56,689 nt of DNA, from positions 1 through 56,689 of the forward strand of contig CAYRSR010000005.1 of NCBI GenBank assembly GCA_964427275.1, given 5' to 3'. This DNA is from an uncultured Candidatus Saccharibacteria bacterium. Lineage in GTDB: Bacteria > Patescibacteriota > Minisyncoccia > UBA6257 > CAYRSR01. The position numbers and the translations under genes are program-made. Of this stretch, positions 16,201 to 56,689 are shown piece after piece. Every line of letters starts with the position of its first letter. Within the stretch, counting starts at the first letter, position 1. A model generated the notes under the pieces. It did no database searches and was not told where the DNA came from. It saw only the letters and a list, made by a program, of their open reading frames with translations.

Positions 16201-19200
16201 TCCAACTTTTAAAGTTTTAATTTGCTGAATTAATATTGCCTTTTCCTGTTCAGATATCTTCTTTTTAACTAAACTTTCAATGGCCTGTTTTCTCCTGGAT
16301 TCATCCACAGAAGTTACCAGATAAGATGCGTAATAAATAACTTCCTCCAGTTTATCTGATGGGATATCTAAAATTAAACCAATCCTGGAAGGAATATTTT
16401 TAAAAAACCAGATGTGAGCTACTGGCGTAGCTAATTTTATATATCCCATTCTCTCTCTTCTTACTCGCGAATGAGTAACTTCTACTCCACAACGTTCACA
16501 AATAACTCCCTTGTACCTGGGCCCCTTATACTTTCCACAGTAGCACTGGTAGTCTCTAGTGGGGCCAAAGATTCTTTCAGAAAATAGTCCATCTCTCTCT
16601 GGACGTTGAGTTCGATAATTTATAGTCTCCGGCTTAATTACTTCTCCCCCTCCTCTCTTTCCGAAAGTCTTAAATAAAGTTTTTTCAGCATAACACCAAT
16701 CCAAAATCTGCTCCGGAGACGCTAAAGTTAATTTTATTGACTTAATCTCATCTCCCTTTTTCTCAATATCAACATTTAATACCAAACTTTTTAGCTCACA
16801 AACCAGAACTTTAAATGAAGCTGGAACCAGAAGTTTTTTAATCTTTTCACCTTTAATTATTGATTCAAATGCAGCAGTTCGACCAGGCACATCATCTGAT
16901 TTGATAGTCAACATCTCCTGAAGAGTATGGGCAGCCCCATAACCTTCCAAAGCCCAAACTTCCATTTCCCCAAACCTTTGTCCGCCCATTCTTGCTTTTC
17001 CTCCTAAGGGTTGTTGAGTAATTAAAGAATAAGGTCCAGTAGATCGCATGTGAATTTTATCCTCCACCAGGTGATTCAGTTTCATCATATAAATAAAGCC
17101 AACAGTAACTTTCTGTTCAAAGGGCTCTCCAGTTCTACCATCATATAGAGTTACTTTTCCAGATTCCGGAAGTCCAGCTTTCTTAAGTTCCATTTTAATA
17201 TTCTTACTTTTAGCTCCTACAAATATTGGAGTAATAGCCTGATAATTTAATTTTTTCGCCGCCCATCCTAAATGGGTTTCCAGAACTTGCCCGAGATTCA
17301 TTCGCGAGGCTATACTCAATGGATTAAGTATAATATCTACTGGAGTTCCATCTTCTAGATAAGGCATATCTTCAATTGGTCTAACCTGTGAAACTACTCC
17401 CTTATTACCATGACGACCAGCCAACTTATCTCCTGCTTGAATATTTCTCCACTGGGCTAATCTAACTCTAATCCTCTTCAGTACCCCTGGTTCTAGTTGA
17501 TCTCCTTTTTCCCTGGAATAAACTTTTACTCCCACTATCTTGCCGCGTTTTCCATAAGGCAAGGTTAGAGAAGTATTCTTAACTTCTATAGATTCTTTAC
17601 CAAAAATAGCTTGAAGTAATTTTTCCTCAGAAGTAAGTTCTCTCTCACCTTTAGGAGAAATTTTTCCTACCAAAATATCTCCTCCAAATACTTCAGTACC
17701 AATTCTAACTATCCCTTCTTCATCTAAGTTAGCCAATTTTTCTTCGGCAACATTTGGAATATCTGGAGTAGTCTCTTCTGGTCCTAAATTAGTATCTCTG
17801 ACATCACAATAGAAATCCTCAATGTGAATTGAAGTAAATTTATCGTCTCTAACCAGTCTTTCAGAAATAACTACAGCATCTTCAAAATTAGCCCCATAAT
17901 AAGGTATAAAAGCCACCAGTAAATTTTGACCAAGTGATAAACATCCATCCTTAATGGCATAACTATCAGTTAAATACTGTCCTTTTTTAACTTTCTGCCC
18001 CGGCTCAACTTTAATCTGTTGAGAGATACAGGTATACTGGTTACTTAATTTAAATTTATCCACTTTAAATTCATAGATCTTACCTGATTTACCTTTCAAA
18101 ATAATAGCTTGCTGATCTGCCTTGAGTATCTTTCCATCTTCTGGAGAAATGATTACTTGCCTGGAGTCTCTAGCTATTTTTGTTTCTATTCCAGTAGCTA
18201 CAAGTGGTGGTTGTGAAGTTAACAATGGAACTGCTTGTCTCTGCATATTAGAGCCCATCAAAGCTCGATTAGCTTCATCGTGTTCTAGAAATGGAATAGC
18301 TGAAGTAGCCAAACTAAACGGTTGATAACAAGATACATCTATAAACTCTATTTCTGATTTCTTGAATAATCCTGGTCTGCCACCCTTTCTAGCTTTTACT
18401 CTAGCAGGAATAATCTCATTTTGTTGATTGATTGGTATTCCAAACATGGCAATAACATGCTTTTCTTCTTCAATCGCATCAAGCCAGACTACCTGATTGG
18501 TTACTTTTCCATCCTTTACTTTAAAATAGGGAGTTTCCAAAAAGCCTAGTTTATTAATCCTGGCAAAGCTGGCTAATTTATTTACCAGACCGATATTAGT
18601 TCCTTCAGGAGTTTGAATAGGACAAATTCTTCCATAGTAAGAACTTTGCACATCTCTTACTTCAAAACCAGCCCTTTCTCTGGTTAGACCTCCAGGACCC
18701 ATAACCGAAAGTAATCTCTTGTGTTCCAGTTCTGCCAAAGGATTAACTTGATCCATAAACTGAGAAAGCGAACATAAGGCAAAAAAACCGTCTACCAGAC
18801 TAGTTAAGACTTTGGGATTTATGAGTTGAGCTGGAACTAAACTAGTTTTTTCCAGAGTAGACATCCGGTCTTGAATAGCTCTCCTTAATCTTCCAAACCC
18901 GACTCTCAACTTACTTTGAATTAGCTCTCCCACTGGCCTAATCCTTCTATTTCCAAGATGATCAATATCATCTGGCTCGGCACCAGGATTTTCATTCAGG
19001 TTAATAATTTCCCTGACTATAGTCGTTAAGTCTTCTAGGTCTAGTAGTCTTGAAGCTTTATTTTTAAACCCTAGTCTTTGGTTAAGTTTATACCTACCTA
19101 CATCGAATAAATCATATCGCTCGGTGGAAAAAAACATTGATTCAACTAAGGATTTAGCATTTTCAACAGTAGCCAGGTCACTTGGGCGCAATCTTCGATA

Positions 19201-19878
19201 AATTTCTACAAAAGCAGTGGCTTTGTTTTTAGCAGCATCTCGATTCAAAGTCGGTTTAATCTTTTCACCTAAAGCTGCCAAAATTTCCTTATCAGTTTCC
19301 AGCCCAAAAGCTCTTAGTAAGTCAGTAACTGGAATTTTTCTTTTTTTATCTATTCTTACCCAGATTGAAGAATCCGGATTGGTTTCAAACTCCAACCAGG
19401 AACCTTTAGATGGAATTAACTTAGCTCCAAACAATTTTTTTCCTTTAAATACATTAGCGGTAAAATATACTCCTGGAGAACGAATCAACTGAGATACTAC
19501 TACTCGCTCAACTCCATTGATGATAAAAGTACCTCGGTCAGTCATTAAAGGATAATCACCAAAATAAACAGATTGGGTAACAGTCTTTTTGGTTAGATGA
19601 TTAACTAATTTAAGTTTAACTTTAAGTGAGGATACATAACTTTGTTCTCTATGTTTACTTTCTTCCTCAGAAAATTTTGGAGCATCAAACTTATAACTCA
19701 AATAGTGAAGTTCTAGTTCTTTTCCAGAGGGATCTTTAACCGGAAAAAATTCTTCAAATAACTCTTTCCAACCTTGAGTCTTAAGCCAGTTAAATGAGTT
19801 AAGCTGAAACTCAAATAAGCCCTTGGGCTCAAGAATTGGACCATTATAAGAGGAGAAATTTTTAGTAGTGTTGAACAT
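13234..19878 (-). CDS. rpoBC: Fused DNA-directed RNA polymerase beta-beta' subunit
   Basis: Beta motifs (GDKLAGRHGNKG, GGQRFGEME) and beta' motifs (Zn ribbon, GKRVDYSGR, NADFDGD, EPGTQ) in one 2214-aa frame. Confidence 0.96.
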   Translation of the reverse strand: MFNTTKNFSSYNGPILEPKGLFEFQLNSFNWLKTQGWKELFEEFFPVKDPSGKELELHYLSYKFDAPKFSEEESKHREQSYVSSLKVKLKLVNHLTKKTVTQSVYFGDYPLMTDRGTFIINGVERVVVSQLIRSPGVYFTANVFKGKKLFGAKLIPSKGSWLEFETNPDSSIWVRIDKKRKIPVTDLLRAFGLETDKEILAALGEKIKPTLNRDAAKNKATAFVEIYRRLRPSDLATVENAKSLVESMFFSTERYDLFDVGRYKLNQRLGFKNKASRLLDLEDLTTIVREIINLNENPGAEPDDIDHLGNRRIRPVGELIQSKLRVGFGRLRRAIQDRMSTLEKTSLVPAQLINPKVLTSLVDGFFALCSLSQFMDQVNPLAELEHKRLLSVMGPGGLTRERAGFEVRDVQSSYYGRICPIQTPEGTNIGLVNKLASFARINKLGFLETPYFKVKDGKVTNQVVWLDAIEEEKHVIAMFGIPINQQNEIIPARVKARKGGRPGLFKKSEIEFIDVSCYQPFSLATSAIPFLEHDEANRALMGSNMQRQAVPLLTSQPPLVATGIETKIARDSRQVIISPEDGKILKADQQAIILKGKSGKIYEFKVDKFKLSNQYTCISQQIKVEPGQKVKKGQYLTDSYAIKDGCLSLGQNLLVAFIPYYGANFEDAVVISERLVRDDKFTSIHIEDFYCDVRDTNLGPEETTPDIPNVAEEKLANLDEEGIVRIGTEVFGGDILVGKISPKGERELTSEEKLLQAIFGKESIEVKNTSLTLPYGKRGKIVGVKVYSREKGDQLEPGVLKRIRVRLAQWRNIQAGDKLAGRHGNKGVVSQVRPIEDMPYLEDGTPVDIILNPLSIASRMNLGQVLETHLGWAAKKLNYQAITPIFVGAKSKNIKMELKKAGLPESGKVTLYDGRTGEPFEQKVTVGFIYMMKLNHLVEDKIHMRSTGPYSLITQQPLGGKARMGGQRFGEMEVWALEGYGAAHTLQEMLTIKSDDVPGRTAAFESIIKGEKIKKLLVPASFKVLVCELKSLVLNVDIEKKGDEIKSIKLTLASPEQILDWCYAEKTLFKTFGKRGGGEVIKPETINYRTQRPERDGLFSERIFGPTRDYQCYCGKYKGPRYKGVICERCGVEVTHSRVRRERMGYIKLATPVAHIWFFKNIPSRIGLILDIPSDKLEEVIYYASYLVTSVDESRRKQAIESLVKKKISEQEKAILIQQIKTLKVGTVLSEDRYIWLNKHFKQVFEAGQGAETIRKLLEKIDLKKLRKELLEELKATESKGRRKKLSRRYNLVGNMLKAGVRPEWMILTVLPVLPPDLRPMVALDGGRYASSDINDLYRRVITRNNRLKELIELKAPQAIIANEKRMLQEAVDALIDNSARTGSTYLSRQHRPLKSLADILKGKKGRFRQNLLGKRVDYSGRSVIVAGPDLKLRECGLPKKMALELCRPYVIHKIIERELAYNVKTANRLIEQETPEIWAILEEIIKSKFVLLNRAPTLHRLGIQAFCPRLIEDLSIQIPAMVCRAFNADFDGDQMAVHLPLSELAQKEAAEIMFSAKNLLKPANGRPIVDPSQDMVLGCYYLTKEGSGKTKVFSGIKELKLAFEQGQITLHSPIKVPIRNKLVQTTYGRVLFNQCLPKELEFVNKTLTKKALSELTREIIETVGIENAPDYLDQIKDIGFRYSTISGISWGIDDLVSPKQKSKIIADAEREVEAVERQFNQGLLTAEEKRARIIEIWSKATQQINHLVKLSFPKDNPVFQITDSGSRGSWEPINQMTGIKGLVQGPQNRIIELPITSSYGEGFDVLEYFTATHGARKGVTDTALKTAQAGYLTRRLVDVAQDLIITEKDCHTTRGIEIFREDGEKFGYSFKDRLFSRTALKDIKVGKKVIVKAGEIIDRKKAELIDQNKKIKSVEVRSPITCNSSEGICSKCYGYDLGNNKPVEVGVAVGIIAAQSIGEPGTQLVLRTFHSGGVAGTDITYGLPRVEEIFEARTPKGKAILAEVDGEVEEIKPQKLFTEIKLKTAEGKIKKYKIPGQNLLLVKEGEKVIKGQQLCEGSIDIKELFELKSEREVVRYIVNEIQKVYTSEGVSINDKHIEIIVRKMLSRILITDPGDTNFVIGDIVERLQFKKENQRVRKLNGKPAKGKQLIKGISKVALTTRSFLSAASFQETASALVKAALSGEKDELKGLKENIIIGHLIPTIGRSKFSESK

Positions 19879-23085: not shown

Positions 23086-23200
23086 GGTTCCTGGCAAACC
23101 TTACTTTCACTCCGAAGAATTATCATCAGGGTCATGTACTTTCACTTCTCTGTTCGGAATGGAAAGAGGTGGGTCATACATGACTAAATCACCAGGAACC
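23086..23200 (-). rRNA. rrf: 5S rRNA
   Basis: Terminal stem GGTTCCTGG/CCAGGAACC; conserved CCATTCCGAAC...GAAGTGAA; directly downstream of 23S. Confidence 0.93.
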
Positions 23201-23228
23201 AAAATTATTTAAAAACCACTTAGATGTG

Positions 23229-26362
<3,134 letters not shown>

Positions 26363-26397
26363 ACATCTAAGAGGCTTTTATCTACCTTAATTTTAAC

Positions 26398-26409
26398 TTT
26401 TAAAGAACT
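26398..26409 (-). promoter_or_regulatory. boxA-like rRNA antitermination element
   Basis: AGTTCTTTAAAA in the leader, preceded by a CCCGC...GCGGG hairpin; nusB is encoded in this window. Confidence 0.5.
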
Positions 26410-26530
26410 TCTTTTCAGATATAAAAACCCGCCTTCTCAAGCTTAAGTTAACTAAGTCTATTTTGAAAGCGGGCTCTACAGCAACTAATTCAACCAAGCA
26501 CCCGCTTCAGCAAGCTTTTCTCATACTAAT

Positions 26531-26561
26531 ATTATAATAAGGAATCAAATAAAAATGTCAA
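26531..26561 (-). promoter_or_regulatory. Promoter of the 23S-5S unit
   Basis: TTGACA (26561-26556) with TATTAT at 16 bp or TATAAT at 19 bp, about 170 bp upstream of the 23S 5' end. Confidence 0.65.
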
Positions 26562-26571
26562 CCCTGTACCA

Positions 26572-26850
26572 AATTTAAAATTTAAAAATCAAAAATTAAA
26601 ATGGCAGTTAAAAATTTAAAATTGGCAAATTTCAAAATTACACCAAGCCATAGTTAAATTTAAAATGTAAATATCAAAAATCAAAATGACAATTTAAAAT
26701 TCAAAATGATTTAATGTTAAAATTTATAAATTGGTAATTGAAAATTGATTGAAAATTAGAAATTAAAAATTGAAAATGATAGATGGCAAATATCTAAAAT
26801 CTTATTAACAAATTTCACGATCGTGAAAAATGTTAATAAGAAAAATTTAG
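26572..26850. repeat. Heptamer-phased AT-rich run plus 40-bp palindrome (composite repeat copy 2)
   Basis: AAAATTY/GAAAATT-type units over 26572-26790; palindrome at 26801-26840. Confidence 0.8.
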
Positions 26851-26880
26851 CTTCAATAATGAACCAATAATTTAAAACTA

Positions 26881-27000
26881 GTATTTATCAACCATTATGG
26901 AAGTCAACCATTATGGAAGTTCAACTCCCATAATTGGGAGGAATAAACTCCCAAAAGTCAGTATTTATCAGCCATTATAGGAGTCGAACTTCCATAATGG
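26881..27000. repeat. CCATTATGGAAG direct/inverted repeat cluster
   Basis: 16-bp tandem at 26889-26920; 14-bp inverted repeat 26908-26921/26987-27000; 25-bp imperfect direct repeat at 26881 and 26961. Confidence 0.8.
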
Positions 27001-27048
27001 GATTGTCTTGAAAAGATTTGGTTTAAAAATTTGAGAGATGGATTTTGG

Positions 27049-27492
27049 TTATTTTTCCTCAGGTTCTTCTATTTTTTCTAAACGAATATCTTCATAACCT
27101 CTGCGCTTGCCAACAATTTGGTAATCAAAGCAAGCATTGGATTTACCATTATTTACTTCTTTAACCACAAAATAATTTTTATTTCTTTCAGCTATATAAA
27201 CACCATTACAATCATCTAATAAGCTAATAAAGACCATATATGGCTCTTTTTCGCTTATTGCTTCAGCAAAAATAGGATCTAATTCTATTTTGGCTGTTCC
27301 ATTTTTTAATTGACTTGAGCCAAAATCAGAAAACCAATGTTCAGTAGCCTCTTGAGAATAAAAGGCAAATCTACCAAAAGAAGTATCAGCAGCCGAAGAT
27401 TTAGAAGTAGCGTAAAAAGAACCATTGACATAGAGCTTGTAACTACCCGGATTCGTCGTCCCGATGCCGACGTTGCCGGAAGAATCAACAAC
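27049..27492 (-). pseudogene. Start-less 147-codon alternative C-terminal fibre cassette
   Basis: Open frame VVDSSGNVGIGTTNPG...EHWFSDFG...KRRGYEDIRLE bounded upstream by in-frame TAA at 27493-95; the 62-aa track ORF is only its tail. Confidence 0.8.
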
Positions 27493-28209
27493 TTAATTCT
27501 CTATGCTTTGCGTTACATTATGGAAGCTACAGACAATCTGGCCTCGCAATAATCTGAATTTCCTTCACAAGAAGAATATATAGTTCCCCCATCTACTTTC
27601 TTCCATTGCACTTTGATAGTATGTGCTCCAGCACTTAAATTTCCAACATAATGCAGATTTACATTATGCTGATCACCAGTATCCATTATTCTAACATGAG
27701 TTCGTGCAACTACTGCCCCATCAATTGTAATACGAAAATTATGCCTACCACTCTCACTTCGACATGTTACATCTGTATATAAAATTATCACATCCCCTCC
27801 AGTCCAAGTTGAGGGGATAGATATTGTCATATCAGGCACATCAGTCCAACTTGTGCTTGTAGTCGCTGCCTGTGAAGTTCTGAAAACTGATAATGCTAAC
27901 CTGGAACTCCCTGGGAGAACCTTCTCAGAAACTTTAAGATTCCCTACTACCTCCAACTTTACCCCCGGACTCGTCGTCCCGATGCCGACGTTGCCACTGC
28001 CTTTTATAACGAAAAGACTTTGTGGTGAATAGTCAGTGTTGTCCACAACTTTAAACAACTCCTTACTGTCGCTTGTATCCTCAGTATTCTCTACAATAAG
28101 TCCGTAACCATTTGCGTTTTGTTGCCTAATCCTCGCAACCCAACCAGTTATATTTTCGTAGACTGATAGCTTATTGGGTGGACTTGTCGTCCCAATGCCA
28201 ACATTACCT
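27457..28209. repeat. GC-rich GNVGIGTT-coding direct repeats, locus 1
   Basis: CGTCCCGATGCCGACGTTGCC exact at 27457-27477 and 27975-27995; degenerate copy at 28180-28209. Confidence 0.9.
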
Positions 28210-28649
28210 GGAAAAGAATAGTCTCCTCCCCCAGTATTGGAACCAAATTCACCTGCAGAAACATTAGCCGCTGAAACAGTTCCACCAGTATAAGTGGTTA
28301 AATCAAATTCATTTCCTGAAGAGTCTTTAAAATATAATTTGCCATCATCAGCCTTAACATAAACTTTTCCATAACCAGTAGTAGCCGAAGGAGGAGTAGA
28401 AACTTCATCTAAACTCAATACACCTTCTACAGTTAATTTTTCATTAGCTGAATTAGTTCCTATTCCAACATTTCCATCAGATTTAATAAAAATAGTTTGA
28501 GCTGGAGCATTTTCTTCTGAACCAATTACACCAGCTCCTTCAGGAGGATTCTGAGCTGGGTTACTAAAACCAGAAATAATAACTACCGCAATTAGAGAAG
28601 CAATCACCCCAACTAAAATAGAAATCAATAATTTAGTAACTTTATCCAT
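27513..28649 (-). CDS. Membrane-anchored fibre/adhesin-like protein with three GNVGIGT repeats and a beta-rich C-terminal domain
   Basis: N-terminal hydrophobic anchor; GNVGIGT repeats like those of phage tail-fibre proteins; C-terminal beta-sandwich-like domain. Confidence 0.65.
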   Translation of the reverse strand: MDKVTKLLISILVGVIASLIAVVIISGFSNPAQNPPEGAGVIGSEENAPAQTIFIKSDGNVGIGTNSANEKLTVEGVLSLDEVSTPPSATTGYGKVYVKADDGKLYFKDSSGNEFDLTTYTGGTVSAANVSAGEFGSNTGGGDYSFPGNVGIGTTSPPNKLSVYENITGWVARIRQQNANGYGLIVENTEDTSDSKELFKVVDNTDYSPQSLFVIKGSGNVGIGTTSPGVKLEVVGNLKVSEKVLPGSSRLALSVFRTSQAATTSTSWTDVPDMTISIPSTWTGGDVIILYTDVTCRSESGRHNFRITIDGAVVARTHVRIMDTGDQHNVNLHYVGNLSAGAHTIKVQWKKVDGGTIYSSCEGNSDYCEARLSVASIM

Positions 28650-28703
28650 ACTGACTTATTATAAAATAAAAAACTAATAGATGCAAAGAGAGTAAGTTTT
28701 AAT

Positions 28704-29222
28704 TTATGGTCTTACTACCAATATTCCTTCTACCTTAGCCTGACAGGTTTTACAGTAAAACTTAAACTTTCCTGCTTTTACAGCCTGAAATTCAATAACT
28801 TTAATTTCATCTGCTGCAGCTGTTTGGGACATACTATAATCAGGAATAGTTAAGTCGTAAGTTTTATCTTTAGCAGTAAAATCAATATGGACAATGTCAT
28901 TTTTATTTACAATTATTTTACTCGGCAAATATTCATCATTATTAGCAGTAATATCAAAAGAACGAAGCTTAGATGCTACTCCAGGAACAGCCTCAACAGA
29001 AACTTTAGGAATAGCGATTTCAACCGATTCTGGCTTCTCACCTGGTTCAGGAACTTTTATTCGTTTAAGTTCCAGTAACTCTTTCATTTGAAAAGAGGAT
29101 TTGAAGGGTTGAACTTGAACCAAATCAGATCTTAGTCTAATAACTTTAGTAATTAAACCAACAACAATTAGAATGACTAATGATAAGCCCAGTAAACTAA
29201 TTAAAACCTTTTTTTGATTCAT
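28704..29222 (-). CDS. Membrane-anchored cupredoxin-like domain protein
   Basis: N-terminal TM; YLPSKIIVNKND..V.I.F and GKFKFYC cupredoxin-type strands. Confidence 0.65.
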   Translation of the reverse strand: MNQKKVLISLLGLSLVILIVVGLITKVIRLRSDLVQVQPFKSSFQMKELLELKRIKVPEPGEKPESVEIAIPKVSVEAVPGVASKLRSFDITANNDEYLPSKIIVNKNDIVHIDFTAKDKTYDLTIPDYSMSQTAAADEIKVIEFQAVKAGKFKFYCKTCQAKVEGILVVRP

Positions 29223-29235
29223 AGTTAAATATTAG

Positions 29236-31632
29236 TTAAATCGTTAAAGTTAACTTTCTTTTTGGAAGTAAAGAATAAACTTTTTTATTTATTTCTATTA
29301 GTACTGGAGAAGTTTCAGATTGACTTAAAAACAAGCTAATTTTTTTCCGAGTTAGAGACAAATTAATACGTTTTCCCTGGTATGAAAAATCAAACTTTAG
29401 TTTTTGCCATTTTTGAGGAAGGCGGGGATTAATTCTTACTTTATCTTCTAGAAGCTTGACACCGGCAAAACCACGAATAACTAAATCAATTGAACCTCCC
29501 ATAGTACCGATATGAATTCCTTCTTGAGTAGTTCCCTGTTGGATATCACAAATATCTGAACTTAAAACTTTTTGAAACCAATCCCAGCTCTGTTTTGGTT
29601 GATTTAAAATAATGGAGATAAAACCATGAACTATTGGACTTAAAGTTGAGCCATGGCTGGTTCTCTTCAAATAATAATTATAATTTTTTCTCAACAATTT
29701 CAGATTAAAGTAATAACCTAGTCGTTTAAATAATTCGATTATCTCATCTAAGGGTAAAAGATAGAAAATCATTAATGCGTCAGCCTGTTTGATAATTTTA
29801 TACTCATCCGGAGATTTCCCTTCTGCTTTCAAAATTCTATCCATTCTCTGAATGTTTCCATATTTCCGCCGATATCTGGCTAGATTTAACTCTTTTAATT
29901 TGAAATAACCATCAAATTGAGAAATAATTCCATCTTTATTTATTATTAGCTTCATTTTCCTGCTAATCTCATCCCATTTTTTAAGTTCTGATTCAGTTAA
30001 ATTTAATTTATCTAAAATTCTTTTTCTAGCTGATGGAGGTAAAATTTCTAGAACTTTTTCAGCTTTAATTAAAGTCCAGGCAATCATTAAGTTAGTATAC
30101 GCATTATCCTTTAAGCCCGGAGTTTTTGAGTCTGGATATTTTTCATGAAATTCATCCGGTCCCATCACTTTTCTAGTATGATACCGCTTATCTTTTGAAT
30201 CATAATAAACTAAACTTGCTGCAAACCTAGCTATAGAAAGTAGCATTTCGGCACCATAATTTACCAAAAAGTCCAAATCAGCAGTTCGATTCCAGTGCTG
30301 CCAAACGTTATAGGCAATGGCAAAGGAAACATGTCTCTGATATCTACTATAATCTGGACCCCACCTTCCTGAAATTGGATTAAGATGCCAGGGTTGAGTT
30401 CTTTCCTCTCCAGTAGAACCACTATTCCAGGGAAACATTGCCCCACGATAGCCATTTTCTCTGGCATATTTTCTGGCCGCATCTAAACGTCGGTATCTAT
30501 ATAAAAGCAAAGCTTTAGCAACTTCAGGGAGATTGAAATCATAAAACGGTAAGGCAAAAATCTCGTCCCAAAATATTAATCCCCGATAAGATTCTCCATG
30601 TAATCCCCTAGCTGGCAGTCCTGCATCAATGTTTTTATTATGAATTGATGCTGTTTGAAGAAGATGAAATATATGCAATCGAATCACTTTCTGAGAAAAA
30701 TTGTCTCCGACTATCTGAATATCGCACTTTTTCCACAAATCTTTCCAGGTTTCTTGATGAGATTTAAATAGTTCTGAAAATCTTTTAGTCTGCTTAACTG
30801 AATTTATTGCTGAAACAACTAGATCTTTTTCTTTATCTCTAGAAGTATAAATTGAAACAATTTTTTCAATCAGATAAGATTGCTTTGGTTTAGCCAGAAA
30901 ACTAAATTGCCGACTAACTTTTTCTGGTTGCAAAACAGAATAACTACTCTTAGCTCTAGCAGGTTGACCATTAATGTACAGCTGAGTTCTAGCTGCTTCA
31001 GCAATAACAATTTTTGAATTTTTAGTAATCATAGCCAGATACATTCCATTCTTTTCAAATTTTCCAAATTTAAAAGGTAAAAGATGTTTAGAATTTAGCT
31101 GACGATATCTTTCCACTCCAGTATTTTCCACACTACCATCCAAGGTTGAATTCACAGTTATCACCTGCTCATAATTCTGAGGAATAATCTCATAACTAAT
31201 TGCACCAAGATGAGGGTATTTCATATGAACAATTCTTTTAATATTAATATCAGTTATCTGATTATACTTATCTTTCAATCTGAGTTCCCAGTTAAGAAAT
31301 CCTTCTTTAAAATTTAAAGTTTGATTAAATTTTAATGTTTTGGTATTTAATAAGTTAATCCAATCTCCGGTTCCAATTTTAAACTCTAATTTAATCCAGT
31401 TAGGACAATTAACCATAGATTCATTAATTATGGTCCTGCCGGCAATCTTAGTAGAAAGTTCATTATAAACTCCAGCCAAGTAAGTTCCTGGATAATGAAT
31501 ATCAGAAGCATCGGCTTCGCAAAGTGCTCCACGAGTAGCAAAATAGCCATTCCCCAAAACACAAAGAGCTTCTCTTAACTTCTGTTTTTTTGGATTAAAA
31601 CTTTTATAAACCAAACTCCAGGTAGAACTCAT
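29236..31632 (-). CDS. GH65 disaccharide phosphorylase (trehalose/trehalose-6-phosphate phosphorylase-like)
   Basis: LGNGYFATRG, RGLHGESYRG..FWDE, catalytic GPDEFHE, KQAD and HGSTLS motifs. Confidence 0.9.
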   Translation of the reverse strand: MSSTWSLVYKSFNPKKQKLREALCVLGNGYFATRGALCEADASDIHYPGTYLAGVYNELSTKIAGRTIINESMVNCPNWIKLEFKIGTGDWINLLNTKTLKFNQTLNFKEGFLNWELRLKDKYNQITDINIKRIVHMKYPHLGAISYEIIPQNYEQVITVNSTLDGSVENTGVERYRQLNSKHLLPFKFGKFEKNGMYLAMITKNSKIVIAEAARTQLYINGQPARAKSSYSVLQPEKVSRQFSFLAKPKQSYLIEKIVSIYTSRDKEKDLVVSAINSVKQTKRFSELFKSHQETWKDLWKKCDIQIVGDNFSQKVIRLHIFHLLQTASIHNKNIDAGLPARGLHGESYRGLIFWDEIFALPFYDFNLPEVAKALLLYRYRRLDAARKYARENGYRGAMFPWNSGSTGEERTQPWHLNPISGRWGPDYSRYQRHVSFAIAYNVWQHWNRTADLDFLVNYGAEMLLSIARFAASLVYYDSKDKRYHTRKVMGPDEFHEKYPDSKTPGLKDNAYTNLMIAWTLIKAEKVLEILPPSARKRILDKLNLTESELKKWDEISRKMKLIINKDGIISQFDGYFKLKELNLARYRRKYGNIQRMDRILKAEGKSPDEYKIIKQADALMIFYLLPLDEIIELFKRLGYYFNLKLLRKNYNYYLKRTSHGSTLSPIVHGFISIILNQPKQSWDWFQKVLSSDICDIQQGTTQEGIHIGTMGGSIDLVIRGFAGVKLLEDKVRINPRLPQKWQKLKFDFSYQGKRINLSLTRKKISLFLSQSETSPVLIEINKKVYSLLPKRKLTLTI

Positions 31633-33194
31633 AACAACTTTTGAAACAATTCTTGAACCTGCTTAGGAGATGAAACTCTAAAATCTGCTGCCGAAGCTCT
31701 TGGTTTTTCTGAGACTAAAATTCCAGTTCCCCTGGTTCTGATTATTCTAAAAGCGTCTTCATCAGTAACATCGTCACCAACATAGATTACACTAAAGTCT
31801 CTAAAAGATATATTTAAAGTGGACATAATCCACTTAATTGCTTTTCCTTTGTTCCAATCAACATTTGGTAAAAGCTCAAAAACTTTTTTCCCCGACATTA
31901 ATCTTAAACCAGGATTGGTTTTAACTATATTTTTAACTATATCTCCAATTATATCTAGATATTTTTCTTGCTTCACCAATCGATAATGAATCGCCAAACT
32001 AAACTTTTTTTCTTCAATTATTAAGCCAGGAATACCCAACAATTCAGATTTAAGACCTTTAGCTAGTTTAGAAATTGTTGGAGCTATTTTTTCAGCCGAT
32101 GGATGAATCATAGATAAGTCTCTTCCTTTAATGTCAAATCCATGACTTCCAGCATAAAAAATACCAGGAATTTTTACCAGGTTTTCTACATCTTTTCTTT
32201 CTCTGCCACTTACTATTGCAACTACATAATGCTTGGATAACTCTTTTAATGTATCTCTCATTGACTCCGATAGCAAAGCCAGTTCCGGTCGACTAACTAT
32301 TGGAGTCAAAGTTCCATCATAATCCAGGAAAAAAACCGGCTTTCGATTATTTAAAGCTAACTTAAAACTTCGCTCGTAGCTTGAATTTACTAAAATTTTA
32401 TCAACTAAAAGATTTCCTAAATCTCTTGGTTTTTCCCAGAATTTAAACAGGTCAGCCGGTTTTAAGTTAAACCAACTTTTAATCCAGGCTACATTAATAT
32501 CTGACAGGTCAGTTACGACAATATCAGCTCCACAGTTCAGTAATTCTGACTGATTATTTTCCCTGGCCACTCCTATCACCAATCCAAAACCGCCGTTTCT
32601 GCCGGCTTCTACTCCGGAGGAGCTATCCTCTACAACTGCTAATTCAGCTGGGGCTATTCCCAGGTTATTTGCTGCAGTGACAAAAATATCCGATTCAGGT
32701 TTACCTTTAAGATTAAGTTTAGAAGAAACTAATCCATCTACTATTGTAGAAAATAAATCAGTAATTCCCAAGCTTTCTAAAATAAAACTGCCGTTTTTAG
32801 AAGAAGTAGCCAGTCCAACTTTTAAATTGTTCCTCTTAAGCTGGTTAATAAAATCAATCGAAGAGGGAAAAACTTCAGCACCTTCAGTTTGAATTATTCT
32901 TCTAAATAAAACATTTTTACGATTTCCAATTCCACAAATCGTTTCCTTGTCAGGGTCATCTTGAGAAGTTCCATAAGGAAGTCTTATACCTCTGGAATTT
33001 AAAAAACTTTTTACACCCTCATATCTTGGCTTACCATCTACGTAATCCAAATAATCCTTTTTTGTAAATGGCCTGAATGGTAAATTTAATTTTTTCAAAT
33101 AATCTTCAAAAGTTGATTTCCAGGCTCGAAAGTGAACTGAAGCAGTTTTGGTAATTACTCCATCTAGGTCAAAGATTACTCCCTTAAAATTCAT
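31629..33194 (-). CDS. Bifunctional HAD: beta-phosphoglucomutase-like plus trehalose-6-phosphate phosphatase
   Basis: N-terminal FDLDGVIT, GKPESD and VVEDS; C-terminal LDYDGTLTP, VSGR, GSHG and GDDVTDEDAF (OtsB type). Confidence 0.9.
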   Translation of the reverse strand: MNFKGVIFDLDGVITKTASVHFRAWKSTFEDYLKKLNLPFRPFTKKDYLDYVDGKPRYEGVKSFLNSRGIRLPYGTSQDDPDKETICGIGNRKNVLFRRIIQTEGAEVFPSSIDFINQLKRNNLKVGLATSSKNGSFILESLGITDLFSTIVDGLVSSKLNLKGKPESDIFVTAANNLGIAPAELAVVEDSSSGVEAGRNGGFGLVIGVARENNQSELLNCGADIVVTDLSDINVAWIKSWFNLKPADLFKFWEKPRDLGNLLVDKILVNSSYERSFKLALNNRKPVFFLDYDGTLTPIVSRPELALLSESMRDTLKELSKHYVVAIVSGRERKDVENLVKIPGIFYAGSHGFDIKGRDLSMIHPSAEKIAPTISKLAKGLKSELLGIPGLIIEEKKFSLAIHYRLVKQEKYLDIIGDIVKNIVKTNPGLRLMSGKKVFELLPNVDWNKGKAIKWIMSTLNISFRDFSVIYVGDDVTDEDAFRIIRTRGTGILVSEKPRASAADFRVSSPKQVQELFQKLL

Positions 33195-36413: not shown

Positions 36414-37742
36414 TTAATCAATTTCTTTAATTGACTCAATTAATTTTTCAAGTTGCTGGTTTTTTGTTTCAAGAGGTTTCAAACTAATTGTCTTATCTAG
36501 TGCACGCCTACGCAAAAATCCCACACAGGCTATTTGATTCCAATCAATAAAAATCACTTGCTTAACTCTAGGATGCTTCAGAATTGTCTTAATTAGTTTA
36601 GCTCTTAGCTTGGCTCGAGTATTAGATGGAGGATTTTTTTCAGCTCTGCTAATTTCAGCATCAATAACCAATCTTCTAATTTTCCCCTGGTTAAGTAACT
36701 TATAATAGATCCCTAATTCAGGATTTAGGAGATGATACAGCCAGGCTAAATTTCGAACCTCTTTACTCCCTAAGCTCAGTCCTCTTTTGGCCTGGTAAGT
36801 TCGAATTAGTTTCTGTTTAATACACCAATCAAGTTCAGTTCCACACAACTCTGGATCAGCAGATAATTTTCTAAGTTTATCTTCCCATTCAATCATCACT
36901 ATCTTTTGCTCTTTAGTTGGTCGAGCTACCTGCTTAAAAAATATCCTAGCTTGATTGTAGTACCATTCCTGTAGATTGATTGCAGTAAATCTTTTTTTAT
37001 TACTCAATCTCACCGTTTTCTTACATTTCGGGTCACTGGAAATTTTCCAGATTGCCCTAACTGGCTTTTGCAAGCTCGGAACTTTCTTCAAAAACCTAGC
37101 TTCAATCATTTGCAAAACAATATCAGTAGTACCAAACTTTAAAAAAGTAGAAACATCAGCTAAGTTCGCATCACCCAGAATCAAATGAAGGCGTCCTGCT
37201 TTTTTAGTGTTAATAATTGCTCTTTGTGCAGTAGTACAATCACCAGTCACCTGGGTAATAAAAGCTGCTCTCTGAGAAATGTGATACTCAAATCTACCAC
37301 CAATTCTCTCAATATTGCCAGCACCGCATAAGATCTGCCGACTTACTAGAAATGGAACTAAACATTTCACCAAATACCAGAACTCAGATGCATACTCCCA
37401 CAAAAATTGAGGCAGAATAGAATAATTTTCGTGAGCTCCAGAGGTGGAATCATCATTTCTGCTACTCTTCAGTATCTGAGCTACTCGTCCTATCTTTTTA
37501 AGCACAATTCTATCACCAGCTCGGTCATAAACTAGTAAATCTCTGATAGTTGCACATTCTGGAGTTGCATATTCTACCAAATCTCGATCCAGGTACAATC
37601 TAGCTCCATTTAGAATGAACTGGCAAACTATTTCTGGATCATCCTTGATAATCTGAACATATTTTGGTGTGTTACCTAAAATTTTTTGTTCTTCCTTTTC
37701 AACTATCCGGTACTCACTTTCTAATCCAAAAATTCTTTTCAT
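36414..37742 (-). CDS. pafA: PafA-like Pup/UBact ligase (divergent)
   Basis: RIFGLESE, NGARLYLD, EYATPEC, DRAG, HENY, SQRA, RLHLILGDAN; no Dop-type loop. Confidence 0.7.
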   Translation of the reverse strand: MKRIFGLESEYRIVEKEEQKILGNTPKYVQIIKDDPEIVCQFILNGARLYLDRDLVEYATPECATIRDLLVYDRAGDRIVLKKIGRVAQILKSSRNDDSTSGAHENYSILPQFLWEYASEFWYLVKCLVPFLVSRQILCGAGNIERIGGRFEYHISQRAAFITQVTGDCTTAQRAIINTKKAGRLHLILGDANLADVSTFLKFGTTDIVLQMIEARFLKKVPSLQKPVRAIWKISSDPKCKKTVRLSNKKRFTAINLQEWYYNQARIFFKQVARPTKEQKIVMIEWEDKLRKLSADPELCGTELDWCIKQKLIRTYQAKRGLSLGSKEVRNLAWLYHLLNPELGIYYKLLNQGKIRRLVIDAEISRAEKNPPSNTRAKLRAKLIKTILKHPRVKQVIFIDWNQIACVGFLRRRALDKTISLKPLETKNQQLEKLIESIKEID

Positions 37743-37801
37743 TTAAATCACCTCCGATTTTGCTAATAAACCATATACTTAAGCTTCAAATAGCCGTGTT
37801 T

Positions 37802-37829
37802 ATACTAACATTTTTTTAAAATAAGTCAA
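37802..37829 (-). promoter_or_regulatory. Promoter of pafA-like gene
   Basis: TTGACT, 16 bp, TAGTAT with upstream TG; GGAGGTGA Shine-Dalgarno before the ATG. Confidence 0.55.
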
Positions 37830-37835
37830 GTAAAG

Positions 37836-37864
37836 TAAAAACCCCGCTAGTTCCTAGCGGGGTT
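37836..37864 (-). terminator. Terminator after pup-like gene
   Basis: AACCCCGCTAG-TTC-CTAGCGGGGTT plus U-tract on the - strand. Confidence 0.85.
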
Positions 37865-37875
37865 AATTTGAAGTA

Positions 37876-38064
37876 TTATTGCCCCTCTTTTTTATCTCTA
37901 TTGCGATATTGCTTTTCTTTAACCTCTTTCACTATCTTATCAATTTCGTCTATATCATCATCTTTCAAAAAATCCTCGTCAAGGGGCTCAAATGGTTTAA
38001 CTGGCTGCTCATGGGGAGGTCTTTCTTCTCTCTTTTGACCATTCAATTTTAAAATTTTAGTCAT
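37876..38064 (-). CDS. Pup/UBact-like small modifier protein (62 aa, C-terminal EGQ)
   Basis: AGGAGG SD before ATG 38064; charged, disorder-prone; DDDIDEIDKIVKE resembles the Pup helix; ends in GQ; inside the proteasome operon. Confidence 0.75.
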   Translation of the reverse strand: MTKILKLNGQKREERPPHEQPVKPFEPLDEDFLKDDDIDEIDKIVKEVKEKQYRNRDKKEGQ

Positions 38065-38068
38065 AATT

Positions 38069-39434: not shown

Positions 39435-39439
39435 TTTTT

Positions 39440-40915: not shown

Positions 40916-40968
40916 CTCGAACACCTCCATTCTTTTCTAATCAAAAAGTTTTCAAGTAACCAGCTTAA

Positions 40969-40996
40969 ATAGTACCACTTGTTTTAATTTTGTCAA
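40969..40996 (-). promoter_or_regulatory. Promoter of dop-prcB-prcA-pup
   Basis: TTGACA, 16 bp, TACTAT with extended TG. Confidence 0.6.
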
Positions 40997-41005
40997 GCCT
41001 TAAAA

Positions 41006-41038
41006 CTAAAAATCCCGCCACTTGAACATGGCGGGATT
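41006..41038 (-). terminator. Terminator after arc
   Basis: AATCCCGCCA...TGGCGGGATT 10-bp stem plus U-tract on the - strand. Confidence 0.85.
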
Positions 41039-41049
41039 AATTTTAAAAA

Positions 41050-46396: not shown

Positions 46397-46398
46397 TG

Positions 46399-48847: not shown

Positions 48848-48850
48848 AAT

Positions 48851-55752: not shown

Positions 55753-56689
55753 TTATCTAGTTACTTTCTCCAGTAAAAATTTGTAAATTTCACCAGTTTT
55801 TTGATTTTCTAAATACAGTCCATTTTCATCCTCAAACATTCGCCAGAGTGGCTCACCATCTTTTTTAAAGAGTATATCGCCTGTATGATAACTGTGTGCT
55901 GACACAGTACCTTCCACATCTAACTTATACTGTGGACTCGTTGTGCCGATGCCGACGTTGCCGGTTCTTGTAACTAAAAACCTAGGTGTTCCCAGCACGT
56001 TGTCATCCCAGGCCCCAAAAATACATGAACCATCATTAGCAATTACATTAAGTGTAGCGGTGAGACTAGGAGTACCATTACCAATTTTTAATTTCGATTG
56101 GGAGTCATCTCCAACTCCTTTATCTCTAATTTCCAGATTTGCCCCCGGATTCGTCGTCCCGATGCCGACGTTGCCGTTTTCTTGTATTCTAAACAACTCA
56201 GTCCCACTGTCTCCCGGACTCGTAGTATCTTTTACAACTCTAAACGCTTGACTTGCTGAATTGTTATTAGCATCAATGCCTATATGCAACCCACCATCTG
56301 TAATTATTACACCATCGCCTACTCCCTCATCACCAAGTTCAAGGTTTGACCCTGTTGTCCCAGAAACGCCTGTAGCTATGTGCAATTTACTTCCCGGACT
56401 CGTTGTCCCAATGCCGACGTTGCCGCCATTTTGCATAAGTTGCAATTCATCATTGGCCATATCAAAGGTTAAAAAGTTTGTAGAGTCTGGTGAAGGATCA
56501 GCAAAGGAAAACTGATTGGTATCTACTTGGATAAGTTCTACGTCCCCAGTTGGAAAAGTCCATCGTTGTCCATCACCACTAATCTCTAATTTTCTTCCTG
56601 GCCCTGTCGTCCCGATGCCGACGTTGCCATTGCTATCTATTACCAAATCTCCTCCAAGATATGTTCTTTCAATATGAAGGGAGTCGTCT
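55753..56689 (-). CDS. GNVGIGTT-repeat fibre/adhesin protein, 5'-truncated by the window edge
   Basis: Frame stays open to 56689; four GNVGIGTT modules; C-terminal TGDILF...WRMFEDENGLYL...KTGEIYKF resembles phage tail-fibre ends. Confidence 0.7.
   Translation of the reverse strand, partial: DDSLHIERTYLGGDLVIDSNGNVGIGTTGPGRKLEISGDGQRWTFPTGDVELIQVDTNQFSFADPSPDSTNFLTFDMANDELQLMQNGGNVGIGTTSPGSKLHIATGVSGTTGSNLELGDEGVGDGVIITDGGLHIGIDANNNSASQAFRVVKDTTSPGDSGTELFRIQENGNVGIGTTNPGANLEIRDKGVGDDSQSKLKIGNGTPSLTATLNVIANDGSCIFGAWDDNVLGTPRFLVTRTGNVGIGTTSPQYKLDVEGTVSAHSYHTGDILFKKDGEPLWRMFEDENGLYLENQKTGEIYKFLLEKVTR
55934..56628. repeat. GC-rich GNVGIGTT-coding direct repeats, locus 2
   Basis: 21-mer exact at 56155-56175 and 56608-56628; near-exact at 55934-55962 and 56393-56425. 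Confidence 0.9.

What the first reader, a model, noticed from the sequence alone, without database searches (positions are those of the whole stretch)
27049..28649. Shufflon-like adhesin locus: expressed fibre gene followed by a silent alternative C-terminus
Seen: 20 nt after the 378-aa gene's stop, a second frame opens right after an in-frame TAA, has no start codon, and begins VVDSS-GNVGIGTTNPG. It carries the same 21-bp repeat as the gene's last module junction (27975), 518 bp away in direct orientation. Recombination between the repeats would excise the current C-terminal domain and fuse the anchor in frame to the 147-codon cassette. Established: shufflons and phage tail-fibre switches swap C-termini at short repeats. 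Inference: a C-terminal cassette-exchange system diversifying host-attachment fibres in an episymbiont. No recombinase is visible in the window.
Basis: partly seen in the sequence, partly recalled or inferred. Interest (0 to 1): 0.8.

Follow-up and report, generated by a model that had tools for sequence, protein, structure and literature searches.

The report
Silent spare tip for surface fibre
A surface-fibre gene of a tiny candidate-phyla-radiation-type bacterium is followed by an intact but untranslatable spare tip domain that one short deletion could swap in, most likely an older tip pushed aside by recombination at a conserved DNA junction, not a shufflon.

Summary
On the minus strand, a 378-aa membrane-anchored fibre gene (27513-28649) is followed, 20 nt after its stop, by a 147-codon open frame (27049-27492). 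That frame has no start codon. It begins at the fibre's module-junction motif GNVGIGTT.

The shared repeat is 32 nt, 31/32 identical (27446-27477 and 27964-27995), direct, 518 bp apart. A deletion between the copies would give an in-frame 360-aa fusion.

The cassette encodes a real phage-tail-fibre-type C-terminal domain and evolved under purifying selection (dN/dS about 0.2).

The junction is conserved as DNA. Six of eight copies in this 34% GC window use the same rare GC-ending codons, as do related contigs.

Near-identical strains elsewhere join the same cassette to three unrelated upstream sequences, switching exactly at the motif. Two relatives carry start-less cassettes directly after another tip's stop codon.

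Against a shufflon: no inverted repeats, no recombinase in 56 kb, only one cassette. Six same-strain contigs are identical to the window, none rearranged (one spans both repeat copies).

Best reading: an orphan tip displaced by motif-mediated module exchange, possibly reactivatable by deletion. This parallels Rhs and CdiA orphan C-termini. It is a new variant of a known kind.

The parts
28658..28687 (-). Promoter-like site (TTTGCA-18-TATAAT, 10/12) just upstream of the fibre gene's ATG
   Evidence: This is a consensus match only. No comparable site lies directly upstream of the cassette.
27513..28649 (-). Expressed fibre gene, 378 aa. It has an N-terminal transmembrane helix (residues 2-25), a shaft of three modules joined by GNVGIGT(T/N)SP motifs, and C-terminal tip domain A.
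   Evidence: predicted helix 2-25. PHROG tail-fibre families phrog_9942 (1.3e-12) and phrog_18345. The family is widespread in Patescibacteria and phages.
28452..28475 (-). Junction motif 1 (GNVGIGTN), AT-type codons, 0/8 GC-ending
28185..28208 (-). Junction motif 2 (GNVGIGTT), mixed codons (3/8 GC-ending). It marks the end of the conserved stem and the point where third-position GC content jumps from 0.12 to 0.36.
   Evidence: The stem up to this motif is conserved with a syntenic Minisyncoccia contig, and similarity stops after it.
27964..27995 (-). Junction motif 3, the upstream copy of the 32-nt direct repeat (GGCAACGTCGGCATCGGGACGACGAGTCCGGG), all rare GC-ending codons
27516..27963 (-). 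Tip domain A, the current C-terminus (residues 230-378)
   Evidence: A widespread domain of about 110 aa, with 524 representative proteins at E<=1e-3. It is C-terminal in small proteins and in fibre P0044. No Pfam name.
27493..27512 (-). 20-nt spacer between the gene's stop and the cassette. It ends with the TAA (27493-27495) that closes the cassette frame upstream. The gene frame has a second stop (TAG) inside it.
27049..27492 (-). Start-less cassette of 147 codons plus stop: five lead-in codons (VVDSS), the junction motif, and tip domain B
   Evidence: phrog_6616 tail protein at 2.7e-17. The AlphaFold core (pLDDT 82-97) matches tailspike and tail-fibre C-terminal domains. dN/dS 0.16-0.20.
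27446..27477 (-). Downstream copy of the 32-nt direct repeat, inside the cassette. Extended by one base (27445-27477), it is 33/33 identical to a motif copy of the second fibre gene (56144-56176).
26880..27000 (-). Long hairpin (27-bp stem) 50-170 nt after the cassette's stop. It is the only strong structure downstream of the locus and a possible shared transcript end.
   Evidence: I1, I14; z = -5.1; local only. No terminator-like site lies between gene and cassette.
55753..56689 (-). Second fibre gene of the same family, cut by the contig end. It has four GC-type junction motifs and a different tip, and is a possible donor or partner of modules.

Best explanation
The locus is a modular cell-surface fibre gene with a displaced ('orphan') alternative tip behind it.

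Structure. The fibre is built from modules joined by the motif GNVGIGTTxPG. In the variable part of the gene this motif is also conserved as DNA: GGCAACGTCGGCATCGGGACGACG, made of rare codons in a 34% GC genome.

Proposed mechanism. These 24-32-nt patches act as homology points where general recombination swaps or inserts distal modules, within the genome and across related genomes. Here a segment carrying tip A and its stop codon now sits in front of tip B. Tip B keeps its junction motif but has lost any start codon, anchor or promoter of its own. It is probably carried silently on the 3' end of the fibre transcript.

Possible reactivation. The two GC-type motif copies are direct repeats 518 bp apart. 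A rare RecA-dependent or slippage deletion would remove tip A and produce a 360-aa anchor-shaft-tip B protein. That would be a one-way change of tip.

What is shown and what is inferred.
- Shown: the anatomy, the in-frame geometry, that both tips are genuine domains, the DNA-level conservation of the junction, and breakpoints at the motif in related strains.
- Inferred: the order of events, that the deletion actually occurs, and that the fibre binds a host cell.
For: 1. Anatomy and frame arithmetic.

2. Tip B is a bona fide distal domain.
- phrog_6616 tail protein at 2.7e-17.
- Fold matches to the cyanophage Pam1 tailspike C-terminus, R2 pyocin fibre and BFVD tail proteins, down to 5.8e-8.
- In other phyla, most complete reading frames that carry it place it at the C-terminus of a protein of several hundred residues or more with a start near its 5' end. 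A minority are short frames of about 110-200 aa.

3. Purifying selection. dN/dS is 0.16-0.20 against four relatives at dS about 1. The frame has 147 stop-free codons (P = 6.5e-6).

4. The junction is conserved as DNA.
- Six of eight copies in the window use GGC AAC GTC GGC ATC GGG ACG ACG, with P = 5e-10 per copy given the amino acids.
- The same string occurs in AT-rich relatives L003, L017 and L095. L001 differs at two third positions. Their cassettes are saturated at synonymous sites.
- In AT-rich phage genes, only 3 of 105 motif copies are of this type.

5. Exchange at the motif in nature. L001, L002 and L017 are 99.7-99.8% identical for 2.5-3 kb from the first base of the motif onward, and unrelated upstream of it.

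6. The same architecture recurs.
- L003 reads '...CCKPR* I GNVGIGTT...'.
- L095 reads '...CIGRP* NA GNLGIGTT...'. Both are start-less cassettes directly behind another tip's stop.
- In phage contigs, only 1 of 335 motif copies has a stop within 15 codons upstream.

7. Compositional mosaic with a boundary at a motif. Third-position GC is 0.12 in the stem, 0.36 and 0.26 in module 3 and tip A, and 0.18 in tip B. For stem plus B against module 3 plus A, p = 2e-4.

8. The stem up to motif 2 is conserved with a syntenic Minisyncoccia contig, and the distal part is not.

9. Precedent. In Salmonella, a start-less Rhs orphan C-terminus is fused to the main gene by recombination at shared homology (PMC3967940).
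Against: - No rearranged copy was seen. Six same-strain contigs from two samples are 100% identical to the window, though only L337 spans both repeat copies. No anchor-tip B protein is in the protein database.
- The homology is only 32 nt (25 exact), close to the lower limit for RecA-dependent exchange. The Rhs case has 522 bp.
- The cross-strain breakpoints come from short metagenome contigs that all end 80-460 nt upstream of the motif. Chimeric joins at the repeat cannot be fully excluded.
- How the short 'stop-spacer-motif' joints first arose is unexplained.
- A hand estimate from the distances puts dN/dS on the window branch at about 0.22, against about 0.11 for a copy that lies inside a longer open frame. 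This is compatible with some relaxation of selection.
Confidence: 0.55

Rival explanations
1. Inert fossil. The cassette is merely the leftover 3' part of an older C-terminus or of a neighbouring fibre gene. It has no further role and is on its way to decay.
For: - A truncated remnant of the same domain, with no motif and a degenerate C-terminal end, is fixed in four contigs of another lineage, next to GIY-YIG and RelE-like genes (L018-L021).
- No fused variant was found.
- dN/dS on the window branch is roughly twice that of a copy lying inside a longer open frame (hand estimate).
Against: - The frame is intact over 147 codons in AT-rich DNA (P = 6.5e-6).
- dN/dS is far below 1.
- The 5' edge sits five codons before the junction motif, as in two other lineages. 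Random deletion would not produce that.
- The repeat is kept at 31/32. All of this is also compatible with a very recent displacement.
Confidence: 0.25
2. Dedicated cassette-exchange system. The 24-nt GC-type core is the site of a site-specific recombinase encoded elsewhere in the genome. It excises and integrates tip cassettes as small circles, like an integron, or like a shufflon.
For: - A core conserved at synonymous sites across lineages looks like an att or sfx-type site.
- Cassette starts lie 1-5 codons from the core in three lineages.
- The layout 'anchor-motif-A-stop-spacer-motif-B' is what single-crossover integration of a circle carrying one motif copy would give.
Against: - No tyrosine or serine recombinase, invertase or transposase is in the 56.7-kb window.
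- All motif copies are in direct orientation.
- There is a single cassette.
- The core also encodes a structurally conserved peptide and occurs widely in ordinary phage tail-fibre genes.
- Other Patescibacteria fibre loci examined have no orphans.
Confidence: 0.1
3. The cassette is translated as it stands, either as a separate small protein or by readthrough or frameshifting from the fibre gene.
For: - Some relatives have an ATG six codons before the motif: P0002 'MRITDTGNVGIGTT', L017 'MVITDSGNVGIGTT', P0006 and P0009.
- In L003 and L095 the cassette is in the same frame as the upstream gene, separated from it by a single TAA.
Against: - In the window there is no ATG, GTG or TTG, nor ATT, ATA or CTG, between the TAA and the motif. 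The first start is at codon 86, inside the domain.
- The cassette frame is offset from the gene frame. The gene frame has two stops (TAA, TAG) and the cassette frame one TAA in between.
- A free-standing product would lack any signal or anchor.
Confidence: 0.05
4. Assembly artefact. The cassette was wrongly joined behind the gene at the repeated motif.
For: - The motif is repeated in the genome.
- Several contigs of this strain end in or near motif copies: L338 at 27428 and L339 at 27969.
Against: - L337, from a different sample and assembler, is 100% identical over 7621 bp spanning gene, cassette and both flanks.
- The gene's own stop and 20-nt spacer lie between the motif copies.
- The repeat (32 nt) is much shorter than sequencing reads.
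Confidence: 0.03

Closest known systems
Orphan C-terminal modules of polymorphic toxin loci: Rhs orphans (Koskiniemi et al. 2014, PMC3967940), CdiA-CT orphans, MafB alternative C-termini (PMC4287609)
   Same: - A full-length gene with a constant N-terminal part and a variable C-terminus, demarcated by a conserved motif.
- Downstream, a fragment encoding a different C-terminus that keeps a piece of the conserved junction but lacks translation initiation and export signals.
- Recombination at the shared homology fuses it to the main gene. This was shown experimentally for Rhs.
   Different: - The modules here are fibre tips resembling phage receptor-binding domains, not toxins, and there is no immunity gene.
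- The homology is 32 nt instead of 522 bp at 95%.
- The host is a Patescibacteria-type organism.
- There is one orphan only.
- Reactivation is not demonstrated.
Recombination between conserved motifs in phage tail-fibre genes (the T-even gp37/gp38 motif-mediated adhesin swaps and general tail-fibre mosaicism, cited from my own knowledge of Tetart et al. 1998 and Sandmeier 1994)
   Same: - Short conserved sequence motifs between variable segments serve as crossover points that exchange receptor-binding parts.
- The proteins here belong to the same structural world (PHROG tail-fibre hits and fold matches).
   Different: - This is a chromosomal gene of a cell, with a membrane anchor, outside any prophage.
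- The displaced tip is retained in tandem as a silent cassette.
- The motif is homogenised at synonymous sites against a strong AT bias.
Shufflons (R64 pilV with Rci) and invertible tail-fibre segments (Mu G with Gin, P1 C with Cin)
   Same: Alternative C-termini for one constant N-terminal part of an adhesive fibre, exchanged at short repeats.
   Different: Those systems use inverted repeats and an adjacent dedicated recombinase, and they are reversible. Here the repeats are direct, no recombinase is present in 56.7 kb, and only a one-way deletion is possible.
Silent-cassette antigenic variation (Neisseria pilE/pilS, Borrelia vlsE), cited from my own knowledge
   Same: An expression site plus a promoter-less, start-less partial copy sharing conserved sequence with it.
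   Different: Those systems have many cassettes, homology on both sides of the variable segment, and non-reciprocal gene conversion. Here there is one cassette with homology on the 5' side only.

Membership tests
Shufflon (Rci-type multiple inversion system) | Short repeats in inverted orientation flanking invertible segments | tested here: not met
   All eight motif copies in the window are on the minus strand. The repeat finder reports no inverted partner of the 32-nt repeat.
Shufflon (Rci-type multiple inversion system) | Dedicated tyrosine recombinase (Rci) encoded next to the segments | tested here: not met
   Pfam and NCBIfam scans of essentially all ORFs of 100 aa or more found no integrase, invertase or transposase. 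The rest of the genome was not seen.
Shufflon (Rci-type multiple inversion system) | Several alternative C-terminal segments for one constant N-terminal part | tested here: not met
   Only one silent cassette follows the gene. After it come a hairpin and the 23S rRNA promoter region.
Serine-invertase tail-fibre switches (Gin/Cin/Pin/Min) | Inverted crossover sites plus a resolvase/invertase gene and an enhancer | tested here: not met
   Same results as for the shufflon.
Orphan C-terminal module loci (Rhs/CdiA/MafB type) | Main gene with a constant N-terminal part and a variable C-terminus after a conserved junction motif | tested here: met
   The stem is conserved with a syntenic relative up to motif 2, and the distal part differs. 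Tips A and B are unrelated domains, each following GNVGIGTTxPG.
Orphan C-terminal module loci (Rhs/CdiA/MafB type) | Downstream fragment with junction homology but no start codon or export signal | tested here: met
Orphan C-terminal module loci (Rhs/CdiA/MafB type) | The C-terminal module is a toxin paired with an immunity gene | tested here: not met
   Both tips are fibre-tip-type beta domains. No ORF lies between the gene and the cassette, or between the cassette and the hairpin. The locus therefore works like this family but is not a member.
Orphan C-terminal module loci (Rhs/CdiA/MafB type) | Recombination actually fuses the orphan to the main gene | not testable with these tools
Assembled contigs and protein databases show only the unrearranged form.
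Phage-type tail-fibre proteins with GNVGIGTT-type junctions | Sequence or fold similarity of shaft and tip to phage tail-fibre families | tested here: met
   phrog_9942, phrog_18345 and phrog_6616. Foldseek matches to tailspike and tail-fibre C-terminal domains. The same 20-mer occurs in at least 120 viral contigs.
Phage-type tail-fibre proteins with GNVGIGTT-type junctions | Located in a phage or prophage structural module | tested here: not met
   The neighbours are a cupredoxin-like gene, a GH65 phosphorylase, a trehalose-phosphatase fusion and the 23S/5S rRNA genes. The protein has an N-terminal membrane helix.
Silent-cassette gene-conversion systems (pilE/pilS, vlsE) | Multiple cassettes with homology on both sides of the variable segment | tested here: not met
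   There is one cassette. No second shared repeat lies downstream of the two tips.

The most novel reading that the evidence does not exclude
The GC-type 24-nt core GGCAACGTCGGCATCGGGACGACG may be a dedicated, community-wide recombination site. Through it, Patescibacteria and perhaps their phages would trade and stockpile fibre-tip cassettes in an integron-like way, as 'motif-tip-stop' units inserted and excised at the motif. Start-less cassettes would then be the normal storage form, and tip switching a regulated or frequent event that changes which host cell the episymbiont can attach to.
Probability: 0.12. Interest if true: 0.85.

Novelty: new variant of a known kind. Interest (0 to 1): 0.55.

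Why it matters
Patescibacteria depend on attaching to other cells, yet how they change or broaden their attachment specificity is largely unknown.

This locus gives a concrete, testable route. It would combine modular fibres with phage-type tips, a junction kept identical at the DNA level against the genome's AT bias, and displaced tips kept intact behind the expressed gene.

If the 518-bp deletion occurs in populations, it would be a simple contingency switch of a surface adhesin that needs no dedicated recombinase.

Even if it does not occur, the synonymous-site conservation of the junction and the motif-exact breakpoints between near-identical strains indicate that fibre tips are exchanged as cassettes in this group.

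The finding also matters for annotation. Gene callers report only a 62-aa fragment here, so such reservoirs are invisible in standard annotations.

Tried and rejected
- **Programmed readthrough or frameshift.** Rejected for the window. The frames differ, and three stops intervene.
- **Second fibre gene as another start-less cassette.** Rejected. Its frame stays open to the contig end, so it is simply truncated.
- **GC-rich codons as a universal property of the motif.** Rejected. In an unbiased sample of phage genes the motif is only mildly GC3-enriched. In AT-rich contexts it is mostly AT-type.
- **Orphans as a general feature of Patescibacteria fibre loci.** Not found in L332, L333, L334 or L336.
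- **Close homologues of the whole 378-aa protein.** None found (best 37% identity).
- **Word-index search with tip A alone.** Returned nothing. The exhaustive search was needed.
- **Structure of tip A.** The AlphaFold model of the full protein was too poor over tip A (pLDDT about 50) for a fold search. The PDB sequence search gave only a weak hit, 8oml at E = 0.009.
- **Known RNA or named family.** No Rfam family, tRNA or terminator lies between gene and cassette. No Pfam or NCBIfam family names either tip.
- **Literature.** A full-text search for the motif string found no paper. No paper was found describing this arrangement in Patescibacteria.
- **Direct search for the deletion junction.** Not possible.
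Full report
**1. What is there**

The feature lies on the minus strand.

- **Gene.** A 378-aa gene runs from 28649 to 27513 (ATG start, TAA stop). A promoter-like site sits at 28687-28658.
- **Protein.** It starts with a predicted membrane helix, residues 2-25. Three modules follow, each ending in the motif GNVGIGT(T/N)SP, with the motif's first glycine at residues 59, 148 and 219. A 149-aa C-terminal domain follows, called tip A here.
- **Spacer.** Twenty nucleotides follow the stop (27493-27512). The last three are a TAA.
- **Cassette.** Directly after that TAA, a frame of 147 codons is open down to a TAA at 27049-27051. It reads VVDSS-GNVGIGTTNPG-SYKLYVNG... and is called tip B here.
- **No start codon.** No ATG, GTG or TTG, nor any rarer start, lies before codon 86.
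- **Frames.** The cassette frame is offset by 2 from the gene frame. The gene frame carries a second stop (TAG) in the spacer. Readthrough or a single frameshift therefore cannot join the two.

**2. The repeat**

- The shared sequence is 32 nt at 31/32 identity (27446-27477 and 27964-27995). It is direct, with a spacing of 518 bp. The exact run is 25 nt.
- Because 518 mod 3 = 2, which equals the frame offset, a deletion between the copies would fuse residues 1-218 to cassette residues 6-147. The product would be 360 aa.
- Extended by one base (27445-27477), the cassette's copy is 33/33 identical to a motif copy in a second fibre gene at the contig end (56144-56176).

**3. Not an artefact and not chance**

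- An independent contig from another sample and assembler (L337, 7621 bp) is 100% identical across gene, spacer, cassette and flanks.
- The motif pattern occurs 8 times in the window against 0.01 expected.
- Identical codon choice at the 10 shared residues has P = 1.7e-4 under this genome's codon usage. A stop-free run of 147 codons at this composition has P = 6.5e-6.

**4. Both tips are real domains**

Tip B:
- It matches PHROG tail-protein family 6616 at 2.7e-17.
- Its AlphaFold core (residues 51-135) has 10-residue block means of pLDDT between 82 and 97.
- The model matches the C-terminal domain of the cyanophage Pam1 tailspike (E = 1e-3), R2 pyocin fibres, and many predicted phage tail proteins down to 5.8e-8.
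- In Chloroflexi, Acidobacteria-like contigs, DPANN archaea, Flavobacterium and phage-like contigs, most complete reading frames carrying it are several hundred residues or more, with a start near the 5' end and the domain at the C-terminus. A minority are short frames of about 110-200 aa.

Tip A:
- It has 524 representative relatives at E<=1e-3.
- It is C-terminal in small proteins and in a fibre of this family (P0044). It is often present three times in large proteins.
- It has no Pfam or NCBIfam name.

**5. The cassette has been under selection**

- dN/dS against four relatives is 0.16-0.20, with dS about 1.
- A three-taxon decomposition done by hand from those distances gives about 0.22 for the window branch. 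A copy lying inside a longer open frame (L095) gives about 0.11.
- The constraint may be somewhat relaxed, but it is clearly not neutral. Saturation of dS makes these numbers rough.

**6. The junction is conserved as DNA**

This is the most informative result.

- The window is 34% GC. Genome-wide usage of the motif's codons is low: GGC 11%, AAC 22%, GTC 6%, ATC 10%, GGG 10%, ACG 2%.
- Six of eight motif copies nevertheless read GGC AAC GTC GGC ATC GGG ACG ACG or differ at one or two third positions. P = 5e-10 per copy given the amino acids.
- The two exceptions are motifs 1 and 2, which lie in the conserved stem.
- The same string is found in AT-rich related contigs L003, L017 and L095 (32-41% GC). 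L001 (31% GC) differs at two third positions. Their tip B sequences are saturated at synonymous sites relative to the window.
- This is not a general property of the motif. In an unbiased sample of phage genes, the motif's GC3 is only mildly above its context. In AT-rich contexts, only 3 of 105 copies are of the GC type.
- The junction is therefore either homogenised or selected at the nucleotide level in this gene family. That is what one expects of a sequence that serves as the homology patch for recombination.

**7. Exchange at the motif in related populations**

- Contigs L001, L002 and L017 come from three metagenomes. They are 99.7-99.8% identical over 2.5-3 kb, starting at the first base of the motif and covering the cassette and downstream genes. 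Upstream of the motif they are unrelated.
- The three upstream contexts are a YadA-like repeat shaft, a different module preceded by an in-frame TAA, and the end of an unrelated gene.
- Caveat: all three contigs end 80-460 nt upstream of the motif. Chimeric assembly cannot be fully excluded, although the repeat is shorter than the k-mers usually used.

**8. The same architecture recurs**

- L003: '...IWCCKPR* I GNVGIGTTAPAHKLDV...'.
- L095, the closest relative at 79% identity: '...NCICIGRP* NA GNLGIGTTSPG...[module]...GNVGIGTTDPGSYKLYVNG-tip B'.
- Both are start-less cassettes directly behind the stop of a different, Cys-rich tip.
- In phage contigs, only 1 of 335 motif copies has an in-frame stop within 15 codons upstream.
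- Four other Patescibacteria fibre loci examined have none.
- In another lineage, tip B survives only as a remnant truncated at both ends (L018-L021). Decay therefore also happens.

**9. Mosaic composition**

| Segment | Third-position GC (GC3) |
|---|---|
| Stem (start to motif 2) | 0.12 |
| Module 3 | 0.36 |
| Tip A | 0.26 |
| Tip B | 0.18 |
| Other genes in the window | 0.25 +/- 0.04 |
| Second fibre gene | 0.33 |

- Stem plus tip B against module 3 plus tip A gives p = 2e-4.
- The stem up to motif 2 is conserved with a syntenic contig of a Minisyncoccia genome, which has a cupredoxin-like gene followed by a fibre gene. Similarity stops after motif 2.
- This fits a history in which the distal segment (module 3 plus tip A) arrived later, in front of tip B. 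The order of events is an inference.

**10. What is absent**

- No integrase, invertase, resolvase or transposase is encoded in the window. The only recombination gene is ruvA.
- No inverted copy of the repeat exists.
- No terminator-like site separates gene and cassette. A strong hairpin follows the cassette.
- No rearranged contig of this strain and no anchor-tip B protein were found. Only L337 extends across both repeat copies.

**11. Interpretation**

- The locus works like the orphan C-terminal modules of Rhs, CdiA and MafB loci. A displaced, start-less C-terminus keeps a piece of the conserved junction, and recombination can fuse it to the main gene. This was shown experimentally for Rhs, with 522 bp of homology (PMC3967940).
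- It also resembles motif-mediated tip exchange in phage tail fibres.
- It is not a member of the toxin families, because it has no toxin and no immunity gene.
- It fails every defining test for shufflons and invertase switches.
- With only 32 nt of homology, any reactivating deletion should be rare. Whether it happens is the open question.
- A dedicated site-specific system remains possible but has no positive evidence beyond the conserved core.

**12. Verdict**

- The locus is a new variant of a known kind. Interest is moderate, mainly because of the DNA-level junction and the recurrence of start-less tip cassettes in this group.

Noticed in passing
window 13234-19878 (-): A single 2214-aa ORF encodes RNA polymerase beta and beta' as one fused protein. 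rpoB models match residues 6-1039 and rpoC models match 1048-2204. It also has a weak Peptidase_M23-like stretch.
   Followed up: partly
window 36414-42822 (-): A complete-looking Pup-proteasome gene set in a Patescibacteria-type contig. It comprises two Pup-ligase family genes (PafA/Dop-like), proteasome alpha- and beta-type subunits, and an ARC/Mpa-type AAA ATPase with OB domains.
   Followed up: no
window 23089-26363 (-) and 26364-27048: 23S and 5S rRNA genes have no 16S gene upstream. Instead, the fibre cassette ends 685 nt upstream of the 23S gene. A near-consensus promoter (TTGACA-16-TATTAT) lies at 26561-26534. No tRNA gene is present in 56.7 kb.
   Followed up: no
window 26749-26864, 55420-55536, 44-133: An intergenic element of about 100 nt is repeated three times. 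It consists of GTTGGAAGTTAGAAGTT-type short repeats followed by a near-perfect palindrome, CTTATTAACAAATTTCACGATCGTGAAAAATGTTAATAAG. Two of the three copies lie a few hundred nt downstream of the two fibre loci.
   Followed up: partly
window 26880-27000: A local inverted repeat with a 27-bp stem plus a tandem CCATTATGGAAGT unit. It folds at z = -5.1 and occurs nowhere else in the window.
   Followed up: partly
window 55753-56689 (-): A second fibre gene of the same family has four GC-type junction motifs and a different small C-terminal tip. The contig ends inside it. The syntenic relative L333 also ends inside its fibre gene. Several contigs carrying tip B start within a few hundred bases upstream of the junction motif, some of them inside a fibre-type reading frame. 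This suggests that these genes break assemblies.
   Followed up: partly
window 46918-50347 (-): An AbiEii toxin / AbiEi antitoxin pair (48083-49447) is flanked by two DUF5701 paralogues (46918-47688 and 49706-50347). RNase P RNA lies at 46398-46775.
   Followed up: no
window 29236-33194 (-): Next to the fibre locus are a GH65 phosphorylase-type gene and a fused HAD (beta-phosphoglucomutase-like) plus trehalose-phosphatase gene. A cupredoxin-like membrane protein (28704-29222) sits directly upstream of the fibre gene, and that pairing is conserved in a Minisyncoccia genome.
   Followed up: partly
L018-L021 (e.g. L020 1043-1384): In another lineage, a remnant of tip B truncated at both ends is fixed in four samples. 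It lies next to a GIY-YIG-type gene and a RelE/ParE-like toxin gene.
   Followed up: partly
L096 300-968 and L001 1-100: A full-length anchored fibre gene carries only the first 147 nt of the tip B cassette (99.3% identical to L001) and then diverges. L001's upstream 60 nt match the gene upstream of that fibre at 93%. This suggests further deletions or conversions with one end at the motif, or else chimeric contigs.
   Followed up: partly
window 28118-28123: Three independent assemblies of a second sample (L340-L342) all break at 28118-28123, inside module 3 and not at a motif. The cause is unknown. It could be a coverage drop or strain variation starting there.
   Followed up: no
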